Below are positions 50,397-59,180 of a DNA stretch of 64,000 nucleotides, in pieces (position 1 is the first letter of the stretch; each line of letters opens with the position of its first letter). The DNA comes from Giardia intestinalis (Eukaryota), in NCBI GenBank assembly GCA_000002435.2, contig CM018792.1; one strand, written 5' to 3'. A program made the position numbers and the translations under genes. The notes under the pieces were generated by a model. It did not search any database. It was given only the letters and a program-made list of their open reading frames with translations, and was not told the origin of the DNA.

Positions 50397-50401
50397 TGAA
50401 C
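50395..50401 (+). promoter_or_regulatory. Polyadenylation signal AGTGAAC overlapping the stop codon
   Basis: gcTAGTGAACtc. An AGTRAAY overlapping the stop is typical for Giardia. Confidence 0.65.
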
Positions 50402-53400
50402 TCTGGCCCGGCCAACTTTTTGTAGGGTGTCATGCTATTGGTTACGTGGGCTCGAGTCCCCGGGCCGGCCCGGCCTGCGCAGGAGGGCGAGCGCGACCCA
50501 GCCCCGTTCCTACATGCTGCTCTGCAGTCTGCTGCCGTTACTTGTTGCTTTTACTTGCCCTGAGGCCACGGTGGTTCTCTAGAGCAATCGCTTGCATCCA
50601 TCCGTAACCCTAGGCGTTACGACTTGAAAGGCCATGTCACCGCATAGCTTTTATGAAGGACATTTACTAGCCATGGCAGATGGAGGTCGTCGCTTCTGGA
50701 AGCCCTGGTGCATGCCAGGCTTAGAAGACGTTGACTTCACTGGCTGCAGGAGCCCCCACCTACATGTGACAGCTTGAAGTAGCACCACTTCGAGGACAGG
50801 CGAGATCCACAGCTCGAGAGGACCTGGCAACAGAGAGCAGACTCAGGCATAGCCACAAACAACCCATCGATCCAGATGGATGAGAGCAGACACCCAATTG
50901 GCAAGGCGTTGGCTAGTCTATGTAGAAGCGCATCCTCCAACGCAGGCTCTGACACACAAAGTCTAAGGCAGACCATTGGTACACAGCAGACGGGCAGAAG
51001 CCTGCTTCGTAGTGTGTGGAGGCTTTGATGAGGTAATCGCAGGCTTGATGAAGGCTGGGACCTGTAGCTCTAACAGAGGGCTTCCCAGCTTTGGAATACT
51101 CACGATCACTATAAAGTTAATACAGTGAGTTGTCTGTAGTAACAAGTCTGCGGAGATAAGAGCAAGGTTCTATCAAACTAGTTAGAAATTAGTGGATCCT
51201 AGTGTGAACTCGCAGTATAGGGACTTGCAGAAGGCACCGCGTTCTATTCATCTGAGTAAGACGGCCAACTAAGTAGAGCCGTAGTGCAAAAACCACGAGG
51301 CCAAGGGCTCCTCCATAGCCTAGAAGCTAACATCACAAGAGTCACACTGGCTGCGGAGTGCTTTCCGATCCCCTGAGGCTTAGCGGCATGGCTTCGTTCC
51401 CTAGTATGGCCAGACAGGCTTGAGACATGAGATACTCTGTCTGCTGCAAAGCACACCTTCTGGCAGCGACTCTGGTCTATCGGGTAACTCTCGCATAGAG
51501 GAGGCAGATGGCTCTGAAGCGCCACCGCTCGCCTGATAACTCTAGATCGTAGCAGAGGAAGCTGTTTATGAGAGTGTACCCCTAGTGTGTAGATCCGCGT
51601 TTTCGTGCGACGTGAGAAGACGTTTCTGGGTTGATCTGTCATGCCTCCATCTGCTCTAGCAAAATGTAACCCAGCGTATGCACTAGTGATCTATGTCGCC
51701 ATGGCAGCCATAGTTAACTAGCCAACGAGACAATCGCTAGAGGAACCCTTGGACACTTATGAGCAGAGGCGCAGTCTGAGAGCAGTCCTCTGGTCACCAA
51801 ATGATGGAGGGGCAGATGTAGTGTTGCTCCATACAATCACACTCTCTCACTTTAGTAGCTATGTGGGCAGCCCCGGTCTCGTGAGGTCTGTGGATAAGCT
51901 GCTTCACCCCATAAAGCATCCAAAATTACTACAGGTGACCCCTGCAAAGTCTTACTGCGGGAGGCCATGCTCCACTAGAGACGTGGCGCTGGAAACACAT
52001 TAGCTGATGGGAGCTCCCCTCTGGCGTTCTTAGGGGCGGCGTCTGTCTACAATAGCTCTACACCCACTGCCTGTCTATGGCCCAACTGTATCTTATTAAA
52101 ATCCTGTCTCCACTGAACGGCTGATTCGAGGGTGATTGCCGTTACCAAGATGATACCTTACATTGACTTCTAAGAGCTGTCTTTGCATATGTTGCGCTGC
52201 TTAGTACTGCACTCAAACGAAGTTTGCTATCGTTTCGCAGCTATTGTGGATTGGAAGAACAGTTAGCATTCTCAGTAGTTCATGTGGTAATTGGAAGCCA
52301 GGGAAGTCTAAGTTGAGTGAGAAGGCTTGAGGAGGGAGTAGCAGCCCTTATACTCCTCTGCTGGATGATGCAGAGAACTGGCTCGTTCCTTAGCGTCGAT
52401 AGTTCTTCAGAATGCACGTTTCTTTGTTTAAGACCTGCATGCTTCGGATTGTCCTCTCTTGCCAGCAAAGCAGTCACTTTCCTGTGTGTCTCCTTCAGGC
52501 ACATGCCCATCTATGGTGGTGCTTCCTGTCTCCTCTCTGGAGAGGCATAACCGTCCCAATCCAGACACCTTGCTCTCAGCACACACCTCGTATCCAGCAG
52601 AGGCCAGGTGCTCGTCGACCATATCCCGTGAGCATCAGCGCTGTGCCACTATGTTACTTCCTGTCCCTCTTGAGAGGCGTATTCTGACCATCCCAGTGTC
52701 TCTATGATAGGGGAGCTGTGGATCTGGAGGTGATTGTTGCTTTCTGGCCCTCTCTGCTGTCCAGTAGACTGCAAAGGCGCCCTTCGGGAGTCGGTCCCCC
52801 AACCCTCTGTTCCCTCGGGGAAGTGGTCCTTGGATAGCGCCACTTGGATGATTCTCGAAGCCTCACTGCACGGGTGCTGCTTCTAAGAACTCCTGGAGCC
52901 TCCCTACAGAGTCGCCCAATGGCGCAAGTCTTACCCATTGTCAGCGGAGGTCTCGGCTCCCAAGGCGCAGCTCGGGGACAATACGTTTGGCCCACGTCAG
53001 CGCCACTTCCTGGCAAGGGCATGCGGAAGATCTACTTCCTCTTGTAGATCCATCATTGGTATCGAGAGCACTGCGCCTGCTATCCCCGTTGGAAGTGTCG
53101 GTAGACGGTGCCCCGTATCTGTCCCATTGAAGAGTTGGAGGTCTGCTAAGGACAGCGAAGAGGATCCCATCAGGGCTGTGATCATATACCCGTCATTATG
53201 GCAACCATAGTGTAGATAAGACAACTGTCTGGGCCCTGCAACTCCCGGGGTAGAACGCCAGGGGCGTAGCTGATTCAAGCTAGTGAGAGCTACCCTTGTC
53301 ATAGCAGGCTTAGAAAGTAGGGAGCGAGTGACGTACCTGGTGTCCATCCACGCACGCATGCAGCCTGGAAGCTGTGCTCAGAGCACCGAGGCCTGCAGGG

Positions 53401-56400: not shown

Positions 56401-59180
56401 TATTGGGATCCAGCCTCGTCTGAAGCTGGGGAAATTCACTTTCTCTCCATATACAGGCGAGGATCTATTGTAGAGGCATACTGTGCAGGCCGGTACCAGT
56501 CGGCGTGGTTGCTGTCCACAAATGTCTCACTTACGTTCTCCCACAACAGATGAATCGCCAAAGTGCCTCTTGGATTGCGTGATGTCCTACAGTGCATCTC
56601 TGCCTTCGACCAAAGGTTGCTACACACACTGCGTAGTTTGGATTGCTCATCATCCAGGGTGATCTGATCAGCTCTCGTCCTCTGCGTGTCTATCTTGTGT
56701 GGCCACTGCTGATGGTCTTTCCAGATCAGCGGGTGCCTCTATCGGTCCCACAGAGACACGCATCATGTAGGTGACTATTGCAGACCAGAGTCCTATCTAC
56801 CAAGGAAAAGGGTCAATCTGTTTACCGCGTAGGCATTCATTGTGTGCCCTATATAGTCCAGCAGGTCTTGTGCTCTTTAACATCTTCTCAGAGCCCTGTC
56901 TGGAGCCCGCGTGCATATCGTTACTACCAAACACTTAGCAGCTTCGACTGACCACCTAGGACGTCAAATCCCTTGCGCTGCACAGTGGGTATGCTCAGCG
57001 TGAGAGATACATAGTCAGCATCAGCCTTCTCAGCTCATCGTTTGGGTAATACTACTGTTGTTTTTCATCCAGTTAGCTGGCGCGAGGACCCAGCTCATGG
57101 CCAGCAAACCGAGAAAGGCCATTCCGGGAGGTCTTCAAGCGCGCTAGTACCTCGTTAGTGGGTAGCTAACAATGACCTTGGCGCATATCTCTGCCAAGAC
57201 ACGGCCTCTTTGAGCAGAGCATAAAAGTGGACCCTGTCATCCTGCGGCCCTGCTGATTTTTCGGACAGCAGGGATCGGAGCAGCTCAGATTAGCATTAGT
57301 CACCTCTGGGTCTCCATCTGTCTTCGTTGCCTGAGATGTGCTTGATCCTGTAGACTGAGAAGGGCGCTATACTGTACTCGTGTCTGCATGCCTCAGCCAG
57401 GCAGGGCTACCCTCTTGGAGACTACGCTGAGGTACCACACATCCCGAGGAACCTGTATGGAGTACCACAGCCCAAGGGCACCTTTGTCTGTCGAACGCAA
57501 GTTGTAGTTATGGCTTCATAAGTGCAGCCTTTCTTAAAATAACTGATCAACTACAGAATTCGTCTACTCACCCAGAGCCACCTGATGGAGGATGATATCA
57601 GTCTCGTCAGTAGTCTATAACGTACACCAGTCGAATCTCACAGATGAACAAGGGCTACCCAGCCCGCAGCACTAGACATTAGCAGATATCCTTCACGACA
57701 AGGGAGATGAGCGACTTGTAGACCACGGTAGTCGCCTGCCCATTGAAAATTTTTCAGTCACTGACCTAGGCCAGCTTATTACAAGACTCTTGGCGAGTTG
57801 TATCAAAAATGCATGCTTATGGGACTCCCAGTTCAAGGTGTATGCTGTCGTACCCTACTATTTTTCACACCAGCCTGTAGACATCGGTTCTTTTGGCCTC
57901 TAGTGGAGCCAAGGAAATCGCAGGATATGACGCCCTCAGTAGGGCTTTATCTGACTCTTATAGCTATATGACAGGAGGATGCCGGCCTTCTATGCATTAT
58001 GTAACGCGTGCTAAGCAACACCAGTACAACCCCTACAGTGTGGCATGATTCGCGAGTCAAAAGGTAGGACGCTTGGGCTGATTGGTATGTCTCCTCGGGA
58101 CCAACTACAGCTCGGACCAAAGGTCATGAGCGAATGCTATTCGATTCTCTTATCAGCAGATGGGGGTCAACTGCTCTAACACCCACAGGAGGCCACAAAA
58201 GGTACTGGACCAGGCATCCGGCCAATTGCTGGCAAATCAACACAACCTCCTTGGATCTCCATTCTTTCCTCACAGGCATCCACATGTAGGAAGCTCTGGG
58301 GGCCTAGAGCCCTACACTAACAGGCTCAAGATATTGCACTCCTAGGTGCTTCCATTAGTGGTGGTAGCGACAGCACTAGGATGATCCAGAGGGGAGGATA
58401 AGAGTCCTGATCCATCAGTTCAGGGGTGGCACAGTTTGGGCAGGGCTTCCTCCTTGTCTAAATTTGGGAGTGCTGGCCTCGCCCTCTGACCATCTGACAC
58501 CTTATCATGCGATGGGGAACCTTAATAGTATCCACTACAAAAAGGCAGAAATAGCGTCATGCATACTCAACAATCCATAGCGTCTCATAGGCTAATCTAC
58601 ACTGATTCACACTTCCACGAACCCTAGCGATCACTGTAGCCTTTTCTCGGGATCTCGCACCGGACTGTCCTTGAGTGCAGTTCCCTCACGATAGCCAGGA
58701 GTCGCAGGCATAATCCAAAGGAGTGAAGATGCCACAGAGGCGGAGAGGAGGTCATCGGCGCACGGGGGTCCGCAAGGGCCTGGCCCGCGCAGGGGAGGCA
58801 CAGGGGGCTGACTCATCAGGGACGCAGATACGCCAGGAGAGGAGCCAGCAATGAACCCACGGCACAGTGAGGGCATCCGAGCCGTCCTTTGATTGGCCTC
58901 AAAGTAGGGAGGCGGCGAGCGTGTAGAGAGGTCTCACCACCTATTTTTGGATTTTCTGTTTCCCTGCGTGTTGTGCAGGGGGCATAGGGTTCAGACCCAG
59001 AGAGCTCGCAGGGGGCTGTATGCAATAGATGTGCTTAGTATTCGATGAGCTTCTATGTCCTAAGCAGAGGTATCGTAGGAGACGAATCTCTTTGGAGTAA
59101 TTAGCACAGTACATAGTAAGTCAGGTCTTTAGTCTTAAGTATCTTATTCTTGCTCACGCGGTAAGCTGAGAAGGACCTCA
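50397..59180. other. ~8.8-kb region with no credible ORF (long non-coding region or degenerate element)
   Basis: The six-frame track shows only scattered 60-130 aa ORFs on both strands, with no homology or codon structure. One stretch (~56630-58160) has no ORF of 60 aa or more in any frame. GC is moderate (~50-55%), and stops are frequent in all frames. Confidence 0.6.

What the first reader, a model, noticed from the sequence alone, without database searches (positions are those of the whole stretch)
50397..59180. 8.8-kb ORF desert in an otherwise gene-dense genome, directly upstream of the VSP locus
Seen in sequence: from the stop of the metalloprotease-like gene to the VSP ATG there is no ORF with coding character. 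Stops are frequent in all six frames, and about 1.5 kb has no 60-aa ORF at all. Elsewhere in the window intergenic gaps run from 3 to 400 bp. Established knowledge: Giardia intergenic regions are typically a few hundred bp. Long non-coding stretches in this genome are often decayed retroelements such as the dead non-LTR family GilD, or decayed VSP/HCMP genes. Inference: this is either a degenerate mobile-element relic, a decayed gene block, or a locus giving rise to long non-coding RNA. Its position immediately 5' of a VSP that sits in a palindrome suggests a subtelomeric or VSP-cluster-like environment.
Basis: partly seen in the sequence, partly recalled or inferred. Interest (0 to 1): 0.55.

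Follow-up and report, generated by a model that had tools for sequence, protein, structure and literature searches.

The report
Old non-coding spacer beside VSP gene
The 8.8-kb gene-free stretch is real, but it is old and mostly freely drifting non-coding DNA of the kind already reported beside Giardia's surface-antigen (VSP) genes; it is not a dead mobile element or a recognisable dead gene, and it holds one small conserved piece of unknown function.

Summary
Window 50397-59180 has no ORF longer than 132 aa. Its stop density, longest open run and codon periodicity match random sequence. The preceding 50 kb is about 93% coding.

The window is Giardia intestinalis WB. The VSP is 100% identical to a WB protein on a 2.76-Mb contig. 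The tail-to-tail pair matches the figures for 'vsp 20' in Adam 2010.

I found no trace of reverse transcriptase, endonuclease, VSP/HCMP, any Pfam domain, any Rfam family or a tRNA, and no repeat within the window.

At least 53.8-59.2 kb is ancient. It is collinear, at similar length, with a 7-kb gene-free tract upstream of the closest VSP homologue in isolate P15 (assemblage E). There it forms inverted arms of at least 6.4 kb around the VSP. Parts also occur in two further Giardia lineages.

Most of it is 50-57% identical to P15, no better than the 62% at four-fold sites of the VSP. Two islands are better kept: a core at 55661-56385 (72.5%), and the VSP-proximal flank (62% where measured, 58590-58889; about 70% with the VSP included). 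They are distant paralogues.

Best reading: a long-lived VSP-locus spacer, a known kind. Transcription and genome-wide copy number are untested.

The parts
45768..50396 (+). Upstream flanking gene. The ORF is 1542 aa, and the ATG form of 1525 aa is P0001. It has no Pfam domain. The mRNA is polyadenylated about 12 nt after the stop.
   Evidence: Transcript contigs L009 and L011 end in poly(A) at about window 50408.
50397..59180 (.). The ORF desert as flagged: 8784 nt, GC 0.524, with no repeat within the window.
50397..53789 (.). Proximal 3.4 kb with no detectable homologue anywhere. Its first 200 nt or so are GC-rich and differ by indels between isolates. Short-read contigs of other isolates end here.
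   Evidence: nhmmer finds nothing in P15. L007, L008 and L010 stop at window 50479-50583, with 75-85% identity and a 24-nt indel.
53790..57330 (+). Tract collinear and homologous with the gene-free tract of P15 (L015 4756-8330).
   Evidence: In a global alignment identity is 50-57% outside the core, against 40-41% for shuffled controls.
55661..56385 (.). Conserved non-coding core: 72.5% identical to P15 with only four 1-nt indels. It is not coding and shows no stable RNA fold.
56064..56390 (.). Module of about 325 nt conserved at about 70% in four Giardia lineages (WB, P15, L018/L020, L019). It ends in the invariant GCTTTTTGATTTT(G/A)TGC. It is a distant paralogue of the VSP-proximal upstream segment.
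   Evidence: Tests for coding and structure are negative or weak.
57331..58409 (.). About 1.1 kb that is not significantly alignable with P15. The P15 interval is of equal length (8330-9356). The L018 lineage aligns weakly here.
58427..59180 (+). VSP-proximal upstream flank. It is kept with the VSP in another assemblage-A-like isolate (85%) and in P15. Positions 58650-58960 or so are paralogous to the core module.
   Evidence: L012 aligns from 58427. P15 aligns from 9356. Paralogy.
59181..61064 (+). VSP gene of 627 aa with a CAATGTT initiator and a CRGKA end. It is 100% identical to a WB VSP (P0003).
60887..61604 (.). Visible part of the left arm of the perfect inverted repeat: the VSP tail plus 540 nt. 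The match is cut by the window end, so the arm may extend further left.
   Evidence: It matches the 541-nt 3' divergence of a tail-to-tail pair in Adam 2010, Table 5.
61605..63282 (.). GC-rich (0.60-0.66) non-coding central spacer of the VSP palindrome.
63283..64000 (.). Right arm of the inverted repeat, holding the tail of the second VSP copy on the minus strand. It is cut by the end of the window.

Best explanation
The desert is long-lived non-coding DNA belonging to a VSP locus of Giardia intestinalis WB. It is a spacer on the 5' side of one member of a tail-to-tail identical vsp pair. It is not a mobile element and not a recognisable dead gene.

Shown:
- At least its distal 5.4 kb predates the split of assemblages A and E.
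- That part has kept its order and length.
- Most of it diverges no more slowly than four-fold degenerate sites.
- Two islands are better conserved: a 0.7-kb core and the VSP-proximal flank. They are old paralogues of each other.
- In P15 the same tract is duplicated as the arms of a large palindrome around the VSP.
- In another lineage the tract abuts tandem units carrying truncated VSP 5' fragments.

Inferred:
- The tract was built, and is reshuffled, by the duplication and recombination that characterise vsp loci. The core would be a relic of a second vsp 5' flank.
- The bulk has no sequence-specific function. It persists because nothing removes it.
- Any function lies in the VSP-proximal flank (promoter region) and possibly in the conserved module of about 330 nt.
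For: Identity of the locus.
- The VSP is 100% identical to a WB protein on a 2,761,001-bp contig.
- The palindrome geometry, 540 nt and about 2759 nt, equals that of a tail-to-tail pair in Adam 2010, Table 5.

No coding or element signal.
- Searches cover ORFs, stops, codon usage and periodicity.
- 56 stop-free segments totalling 4980 aa give no hit among 5.8e9 proteins.
- Pfam on six frames at E<=1 gives only noise.
- custom VSP HMMs give a best E of 0.86.
- no Rfam family; no tRNA; no repeats.

Antiquity.
- P15 locus L015 has no called gene from 3029 to 10000, upstream of the closest VSP homologue.
- nhmmer gives continuous collinear matches, WB 53790-57330 to P15 4756-8330 and WB 58410-59180 to P15 9356-10000.
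- Global identity is 55.6%, against 40-41% for shuffled controls. Lengths are 5391 and 5245 nt.

Neutral rate. VSP four-fold sites are 62.4% identical between WB and P15. The bulk of the desert is 50-57%.

Palindrome in P15. The arms are 3461-9825 and 11973-18347, 97-100% identical.

Paralogy of the islands. nhmmer gives E from 5e-4 down to 4e-9, with queries from WB, P15 and L012.

Third and fourth lineages. These are L018/L020 and L019. L018 has tandem units of 1.06-1.10 kb carrying truncated VSP 5' ends next to the tract.

Literature.
- Regions around VSPs are gene-poor and more variable (PMC7000408).
Against: - 8.8 kb is far longer than usual. Two other VSP loci I sampled have upstream gaps of only 147 nt (P15) and about 660 nt (GS). 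Adam 2010's figures imply under 1 kb on average.
- Retention of length over a divergence that saturates neutral sites is unexpected in such a compact genome, and could mean the spacer is needed.
- The core is 10 points more conserved than four-fold sites and is kept in four lineages, so part of the tract is not neutral.
- If the core is a relic of a vsp flank, no relic of the matching coding region is found.
- The proximal 3.4 kb has no homologue at all, so its origin is unknown.
- Copy number in the rest of the genome and transcription were not testable here.
Confidence: 0.55

Rival explanations
1. Functional cis-acting domain of the VSP locus. On this reading the spacer, and especially the conserved module of about 330 nt, regulates the VSP pair. 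It could be an enhancer or insulator, a chromatin domain, or the source of a non-coding or antisense RNA feeding the RNAi- and chromatin-based control of VSP expression.
For: - The core is 72.5% identical between WB and P15, against 62.4% at four-fold sites.
- The module is kept with few indels in four lineages.
- A paralogue of it sits 220-530 nt upstream of the VSP ATG in WB, P15 and L012.
- The length of the tract is conserved.
- In P15 the tract is kept as near-identical inverted arms.
- The minus-strand consensus fold has z -2.46.
Against: - There is no Rfam family.
- Single-sequence fold z-scores are -0.28, -0.59 and +0.53.
- The plus-strand alifold z is -0.99, and the minus-strand value is below the usual significance level.
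- The compensatory-pair excess comes from a structure fitted to the same alignment.
- Most of the tract is at or below neutral identity.
- Other VSPs do without such a tract.
- No transcript-derived ORF from the tract was found in the collections, although transcript contigs of the neighbouring gene are present.
Confidence: 0.17
2. Fully decayed protein-coding genes, either VSP/HCMP or others, that died before assemblages A and E split and have drifted beyond recognition.
For: - GC is 0.524, which is like coding DNA (0.489) rather than the short intergenic DNA (0.461).
- There are 11% fewer stop trinucleotides than a Markov model predicts.
- A related lineage carries truncated VSP 5' fragments right next to the homologous tract.
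- The core resembles a vsp 5' flank and is followed by about 2 kb, the size of a VSP gene.
- WB carries 306 annotated pseudogenes (PMC7000408).
Against: - No protein, Pfam or VSP-HMM similarity appears in any frame, in WB or in the P15 tract.
- There is no residual codon periodicity.
- Conservation between WB and P15 is equal in all six frames.
- No relic of the strongly conserved VSP 3' end is found. That 3' end is 84% identical between the two VSP-family genes in this window.
Confidence: 0.15
3. Relic of a non-LTR retrotransposon (GilD, GilM or GilT) or of another mobile element.
For: Short-read contigs of other isolates break 94-216 nt into the tract, as they would at a repeat.
Against: - No RVT, endonuclease or other domain appears in six frames.
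- No protein homologue is found.
- There are no terminal or internal repeats.
- No similarity is found to the 20 other Giardia loci fetched, except the orthologous ones.
- The tract is at the same place relative to the VSP in P15, with the same order and length. That is orthology, not insertion.
- The contig breaks coincide with a GC-rich tract that varies by indels.
Confidence: 0.03
4. Regional centromere: a unique, ORF-free, fast-evolving tract, flanked by or forming inverted repeats as in fission yeast or Candida tropicalis.
For: The tract is ORF-free and shows no repeat in the window, its position and length are conserved while its sequence drifts, and P15 has an inverted-repeat architecture. 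No Giardia paper mapping centromere DNA turned up in the library.
Against: - The centre of the palindrome is an intact, canonical VSP gene or gene pair.
- WB has 14 identical inverted vsp pairs but only five chromosomes.
- There is no compositional peculiarity.
Confidence: 0.02
5. Assembly artefact: uncorrected long-read sequence or a chimeric join.
For: Short-read assemblies do not span the tract, and the VSP region is a palindrome that is hard to assemble.
Against: - An independent 454 assembly of a different assemblage (P15) contains the collinear homologue.
- Two further metagenome or SRA assemblies contain parts of it.
- Differences from other isolates are mainly substitutions, with a strong transition bias of 160:39.
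Confidence: 0.01

Closest known systems
Gene-poor, variable regions around VSP genes in the WB chromosome-scale assembly (Xu et al. 2020, PMC7000408), and the 'extended noncoding region upstream' of vsp genes (Adam et al. 2010, PMC2996952)
   Same: It lies directly 5' of a canonical VSP with an initiator motif. It is free of genes. It differs more between assemblage-A isolates (75-85%) than the neighbouring genes do (96.5-99.4% per kb).
   Different: It is about ten times longer than the average vsp upstream region implied by Adam 2010, and than the two other VSP loci I sampled. Neither paper, in the passages I read, describes its conservation across assemblages or the conserved core.
Identical inverted vsp pairs (vsp1267-type; 14 pairs in WB, Adam et al. 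2010, Table 5)
   Same: The pair is tail-to-tail. The arms are 100% identical and diverge 540 nt past the stop, with about 2759 nt between the ORFs. These are the same figures as the pair listed as 'vsp 20'.
   Different: The desert lies outside the part of the arm visible in the window. Whether the arm extends into the desert cannot be seen. A contig of another isolate starts 751 nt upstream of the ATG. In P15 the arms are at least 6.4 kb, consist of the desert itself and flank a single VSP.
Giardia non-LTR retrotransposons GilM, GilT and GilD (Arkhipova and Morrison 2001; cited from memory and via PMC7000408)
   Same: Only that it is a multi-kb stretch without an intact ORF in Giardia.
   Different: There is no reverse-transcriptase or endonuclease remnant, no repeat structure and no second copy in the sequence available. 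It is orthologous across assemblages rather than inserted.
Large arm-to-arm homogenised palindromes carrying multigene-family members (for example human Y ampliconic palindromes; from general knowledge)
   Same: In P15 the arms are 97-100% identical to each other, while the same sequence is only about 55-72% identical to WB. This is the pattern expected from arm-to-arm gene conversion.
   Different: Here the arms are non-coding and the gene sits in the centre (P15) or in the inner part of the arms (WB). Gene conversion was not demonstrated.

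Membership tests
Non-LTR retrotransposon relic (GilM/GilT/GilD) | Remnant of a reverse-transcriptase domain | tested here: not met
   All six frames with stops masked, scanned against Pfam at E<=1, give no RVT family. No protein homologue is found.
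Non-LTR retrotransposon relic (GilM/GilT/GilD) | Remnant of an endonuclease domain | tested here: not met
Non-LTR retrotransposon relic (GilM/GilT/GilD) | Several copies in the genome | tested here: inconclusive
   There is no second copy in the 64-kb window or in unrelated Giardia loci.
Non-LTR retrotransposon relic (GilM/GilT/GilD) | Present as an insertion, so absent from the orthologous site in relatives | tested here: not met
   A collinear homologue lies at the equivalent place upstream of the VSP in P15 and in the L018 lineage.
Decayed VSP/HCMP gene block | Cysteine-rich (CXXC) VSP-like remnants in some frame | tested here: not met
   Pfam PF03302 gives no hit. A full-length HMM built from up to 80 of 90 collected VSPs, run with --max on all stop-delimited peptides of the WB and P15 tracts, gives a best E of 0.86.
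Decayed VSP/HCMP gene block | Relic of the conserved VSP 3' end (membrane anchor, CRGKA) | tested here: not met
   The C-terminal 60-aa HMM gives a best E of 1.6. nhmmer with VSP DNA tiles gives no coding-region match. Repeat D1 appears only at 5372-5486 and 60948-61062.
Decayed VSP/HCMP gene block | Initiator motif PyAATGTT | tested here: not met
   The only match in 50397-59185 is at the live VSP start, 59179.
VSP-associated gene-poor flank / inverted vsp pair (Adam 2010; Xu 2020) | Directly adjoins a bona fide VSP gene | tested here: met
VSP-associated gene-poor flank / inverted vsp pair (Adam 2010; Xu 2020) | The VSP is one of an identical inverted pair separated by 2-4 kb of non-coding DNA, with abrupt divergence a few hundred nt from the ORF | tested here: met
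   The visible arm sequence, 60887-61604 and 63283-64000, is 100% identical. The figures equal a Table 5 entry. The second copy is cut by the window end, so only 718 nt are seen.
VSP-associated gene-poor flank / inverted vsp pair (Adam 2010; Xu 2020) | Higher sequence variation than the surrounding genome | tested here: met
   Between WB and other assemblage-A-like isolates, the genes at 35.8-50.4 kb are 96.5-99.4% identical per kb. The start of the desert is 75-85%. The VSP with its flanks is 85%.
Structured non-coding RNA gene | Match to a curated RNA family | tested here: not met
   Rfam at E<=1 on window 49500-64000 and on L015 gives no match.
Structured non-coding RNA gene | Thermodynamic stability or covariation beyond controls (tested on the conserved core only) | tested here: inconclusive
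   Single-sequence z-scores are -0.28, -0.59 and +0.53. Alignment column-shuffle z is -0.99 on the plus strand and -2.46 on the minus strand. The 18 compensatory pairs against 9.5 come from a structure fitted to the same four sequences.
Protein-coding gene (unannotated, spliced or frameshifted) | Open frame, codon bias or frame-specific conservation | tested here: not met
   WB/P15 mismatches are equal at the three codon positions, and stops occur in all frames. tblastx conservation is equal in six frames. The minus-strand ORF of the core is broken in P15 and L018, with codon-position p = 0.27. The intron 3' motif is not enriched.
Regional centromere | cenH3 occupancy, one per chromosome | not testable with these tools
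   No ChIP data were available, and no Giardia paper mapping centromere DNA turned up in the library.

The most novel reading that the evidence does not exclude
The module of about 330 nt at about 56064-56390 would be a functional element of VSP loci. It is conserved at about 70% with few indels in four deep Giardia lineages, and it is paralogous to the segment 220-530 nt upstream of the VSP start codon. It could be a cis-regulatory or chromatin element, or a minus-strand non-coding RNA. The multi-kb spacer, kept at constant length and as palindrome arms in P15, would be needed to hold that element at a distance or to produce long double-stranded RNA, tying it to the one-at-a-time control of VSP expression.
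Probability: 0.1. Interest if true: 0.65.

Novelty: new member of a known kind. Interest (0 to 1): 0.3.

Why it matters
How Giardia expresses one VSP out of roughly 200-300 and switches between them is still unsettled. The DNA around vsp genes has mostly been described only as gene-poor and hard to assemble.

This locus shows that one such tract is not recent junk or a dead transposon. It is a tract kept in place, order and length since assemblages A and E split. It has a small conserved non-coding island related to the VSP's own upstream flank, and in P15 it takes part in a large palindrome.

That yields a short, concrete target of 330 nt for transcript mapping and deletion experiments. It also cautions against labelling long ORF-free stretches in this genome as GilD relics without testing.

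If the tract proves neutral, the finding is ordinary. It would then be one long example of a known class.

Tried and rejected
- I first guessed that the window was assemblage B. The flanking gene's named homologue (DHA2_153245, P0002) is only 58% identical, and its flanks differ. This was wrong. The VSP is 100% WB, so P0002 and loci L001-L006 are a paralogous locus.
- 'Short-read contigs end just inside the desert, so it starts with a genome-wide repeat'. This is not supported. The break coincides with a GC-rich stretch that varies by indels. It remains compatible with a palindrome-arm boundary, so it is unresolved.
- 'The region is hypervariable.' This needs tempering. The other assemblage-A-like isolates are already about 9% diverged at four-fold sites of the neighbouring gene, so 85% in the VSP flank is only modestly elevated.
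- A tandem [flank + VSP] unit decayed in place downstream of the core. The flank paralogy is real, but no coding relic was found.
- A conserved small ORF on the minus strand of the core. WB, L018 and L019 each have 142-172-aa open frames there, which is how one search found them. This is rejected because P15 and L018 carry in-frame stops inside the conserved segment and there is no third-position excess.
- Two exact-pattern scans of JGI metagenomes with conserved core sequences gave 0 hits.
- Direct look-ups of the VSP and of a desert ORF were not on record.
- The bacterial promoter and terminator scan gave counts within the range of the shuffled controls.
- The GilD paper (PMC64710) is not held.

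Full report

Yes. Between the stop of the 1542-aa ORF (50396) and the VSP start (59181), the longest ORF with a start codon is 132 aa. A 1.53-kb stretch, 56628-58159, has no ORF of 60 aa or more. Stops make up 3.9-4.9% of codons in each of the six frames.

The longest stop-free run is 148 codons. First-order Markov simulations give 154 +/- 29. A codon-usage score trained on the window's own genes stays at about zero or below for the best of six frames in every 600-nt window of the tract (highest +0.02). It is mostly positive across the flanking genes and the VSP. The codon-position composition chi-square averages 6.0, its null expectation. The median is 20 in coding DNA and 48 in the VSP.

The preceding 49.5 kb has only 3325 nt of intergenic DNA, in gaps of 3-667 nt. 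There are no tandem repeats, no tRNAs, no Rfam matches at E<=1, and no direct or inverted repeat of 40 nt or more involving the tract. Sensitive self-comparison and window-wide blastn/tblastx also find nothing.

**2. Where are we?**

The VSP at 59181-61064 scores E 1e-89 against Pfam PF03302, starts in a CAATGTT initiator and ends in CRGKA. It is 100% identical over 627 aa to a VSP of Giardia intestinalis WB clone C6 on a 2,761,001-bp contig. The window is therefore the WB (assemblage A) reference.

The perfect inverted repeat 60887-61604 / 63283-64000 places the arm end 540 nt past the stop, with the two stops about 2759 nt apart. Adam et al. 2010 tabulate exactly these figures for one tail-to-tail identical vsp pair, 'vsp 20' (541 and 2759).

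My earlier guess of assemblage B was wrong. The 58%-identical DH protein P0002 and its loci are a paralogous locus. Transcript contigs from two SRA runs show the upstream gene's mRNA polyadenylated about 12 nt after its stop.

**3. Is it a dead gene or a dead element?**

I found no sign of either.
- All 56 stop-free segments of 60 aa or more, joined into one 4980-aa query, found nothing at E<=1e-3 among 5.8 billion proteins.
- All six frames with stops masked gave nothing in Pfam at E<=1. There was no reverse transcriptase, endonuclease, VSP, ankyrin or kinase, only one noise hit at E 0.12.
The best E was 0.86.
- nhmmer with 500-nt tiles of the VSP gene found no coding-region relic.
- The PyAATGTT initiator occurs only at the live VSP.
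- The Giardia intron 3' motif is not enriched.

An assembly artefact is excluded by the independent assemblies described next.

**4. The tract is old.**

The closest P15 (assemblage E) homologue of this VSP is P0005, 67% identical. It lies in a contig where no gene is called for 7 kb upstream of it (L015 3029-10000).

blastn and nhmmer show that this P15 tract is collinear with the WB tract. WB 53790-57330 matches P15 4756-8330, and WB 58410-59180 matches P15 9356-10000. The unalignable interval between them is about 1.1 kb in WB and 1.0 kb in P15.

A global alignment of WB 53790-59180 (5391 nt) with P15 4756-10000 (5245 nt) gives 55.6% identity. Shuffled controls give 40-41%. As a local neutral yardstick, four-fold degenerate sites of the two VSPs are 62.4% identical. 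Most of the tract is at 50-57%, so it shows no constraint on sequence, yet order and length are kept.

The proximal 3.4 kb (50397-53789) has no detectable counterpart anywhere.

**5. Two conserved islands.**

The first is WB 55661-56385. It is 72.5% identical to P15, with only four single-base indels and a transition:transversion ratio of 160:39. It is not coding:
- Mismatches fall equally on the three codon phases.
- All frames carry stops in both genomes.
- tblastx conservation is the same in all six frames.

It has no unusual fold stability, with z -0.28, -0.59 and +0.53.

A phmmer search of its minus-strand open run against 1.84 billion representatives pulled out three anonymous ORFs. Their contigs turned out to be homologous DNA from two further Giardia lineages, L018/L020 and L019. 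L018 is collinear with P15 6297-9066 and WB 55278-58226 at about 70%. In L019 only 350 nt are alignable.

The four-lineage alignment defines a module of about 325 nt (WB about 56064-56390) that ends in an invariant GCTTTTTGATTTT(G/A)TGC. The open frame is broken in P15 and L018, and there is no third-position excess (p = 0.27). A column-shuffle test of the consensus fold gives z -0.99 on the plus strand and -2.46 on the minus strand, which is weak. The apparent excess of compensatory pairs comes from a structure fitted to the same data.

The second island is the VSP-proximal flank, 58427-59180. It travels with the VSP in another assemblage-A-like isolate (L012, 85% over 58427-62831) and in P15. 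Against P15 it is 62% identical where I measured it separately (58590-58889). The figure of about 70% comes from alignments that also include the VSP gene.

nhmmer queries from WB, P15 and L012 all show that about 58650-58960 is a distant paralogue of the module (E from 5e-4 down to 4e-9).

**6. Architecture in relatives.**

In P15 the whole tract is present twice, as inverted arms around the single VSP: 3461-9825 and 11973-18347. The arms are 97-100% identical and are cut by the contig end. The small differences between the arms argue against an assembler fold-back.

In L018 the homologous tract directly abuts at least three tandem units of 1.06-1.10 kb. Each carries a VSP 5' end that loses its frame after about 110 codons. 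So this locus is repeatedly remodelled by duplication, while the spacer itself persists.

In WB only 718 nt of the second arm are inside the window. Whether the arms reach into the desert cannot be decided. Two observations bear on it:
- A contig of another isolate with about twice the coverage of a single-copy contig from the same sample begins 751 nt upstream of the ATG.
- Contigs of other isolates carrying the upstream gene stop 94-216 nt into the tract, in a GC-rich stretch that varies by indels.

**7. How special is it?**

Xu et al. 2020 note that regions around VSPs tend to be gene-poor and more variable. Adam et al. 2010 describe an 'extended noncoding region upstream' of vsp genes, and 2-4 kb of non-coding DNA between inverted pairs. 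The kind is therefore known.

The size is not typical, though. Two other VSP loci I sampled have 147 nt (P15) and about 660 nt (GS) upstream.

Variation between assemblage-A-like isolates is higher here than in the adjacent genes. It is 75-85% at the start of the tract and 85% around the VSP, against 96.5-99.4% per kb in the genes. Those isolates are already about 9% diverged at four-fold sites, so the excess is moderate.

**8. Verdict.**

The best-supported reading (about 0.55) is a long-lived non-coding spacer of a VSP locus. It would be assembled and reshuffled by vsp-flank duplication, drift freely over most of its length, and carry no mobile-element or recognisable gene remnant.

The main rivals are these:
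- A functional cis or RNA element centred on the conserved module (about 0.17).
- Genes decayed beyond recognition (about 0.15).
- Retroelement, centromere and artefact readings, which are unlikely.

Transcription, chromatin state and genome-wide copy number are the decisive data I could not obtain. The finding is a large, well-characterised example of a known class, and the conserved module is one modestly new detail.

Noticed in passing
window 60887-64000: The tail-to-tail VSP palindrome matches the pair listed as 'vsp 20' in Adam 2010, Table 5, number for number: 3' divergence 541 nt and 2759 nt between ORFs. The 1678-nt centre (61605-63282) is GC-rich (0.60-0.66) and has long overlapping ORFs with no coding signal and no significant Pfam match (one hit below the curated cut-off). 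It is 85% conserved in another isolate (L012).
   Followed up: partly
L015 (P15 contig ACVC01000111.1) 3461-18347: A giant palindrome. The arms are at least 6.4 kb, non-coding and 97-100% identical. They flank a single intact VSP (10001-11917) and end 175 nt before its ATG and 56 nt after its stop. The right arm runs to the end of the contig.
   Followed up: partly
L018 (ENA ERZ28568435 scaffold_6844) 2886-5586: At least three tandem units of 1.06-1.10 kb, 98-100% identical. Each carries a VSP 5' end (signal peptide plus the first CXXC motifs, about 110 codons) that then loses its frame. The array directly abuts the homologue of the WB/P15 spacer.
   Followed up: partly
window 50394-50420; L009 and L011: Contigs from SRR445172 and SRR445170 are transcripts. 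They carry poly(A) added about 12 nt after the TAG of the 1542-aa gene, which gives an experimental 3' end for that gene.
   Followed up: no
Only two homologue clusters exist among 5.8 billion proteins: itself, and a 58% paralogue (DHA2_153245). The paralogue also sits next to an EGF-like/HCMP gene and VSP fragments (L001). No homologue labelled P15 or GS was returned. It appears to be a lineage-restricted family associated with VSP neighbourhoods.
   Followed up: partly
window 4493-5488: A 331-aa VSP-family gene (Pfam VSP, E 6e-27). Its last 115 nt are 84% identical to the 3' end of the VSP at 60948-61062. This is a second, isolated VSP-type gene inside an otherwise housekeeping stretch, with a 667-nt upstream gap, the longest in the first 50 kb.
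   Followed up: no
window 50440-50600: A GC-rich stretch (0.65) at the start of the desert with a 24-nt indel between isolates (a CCCGGCCTGCG-type duplication). All short-read contigs of other isolates end here.
   Followed up: partly
window 50397-59180: Stop-type trinucleotides summed over six frames number 730, against 820 +/- 26 in first-order Markov simulations (about 3.5 SD fewer). The longest open run is nevertheless exactly as expected for random sequence. This is unexplained.
   Followed up: no
window 56306-56380: Inside the conserved module, an 8-bp inverted repeat (GCCTCCGA ... TCGGAGGC) sits just before the invariant T-rich end CTTTTTGATTTTGTGC. It is only partly preserved in P15.
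   Followed up: no
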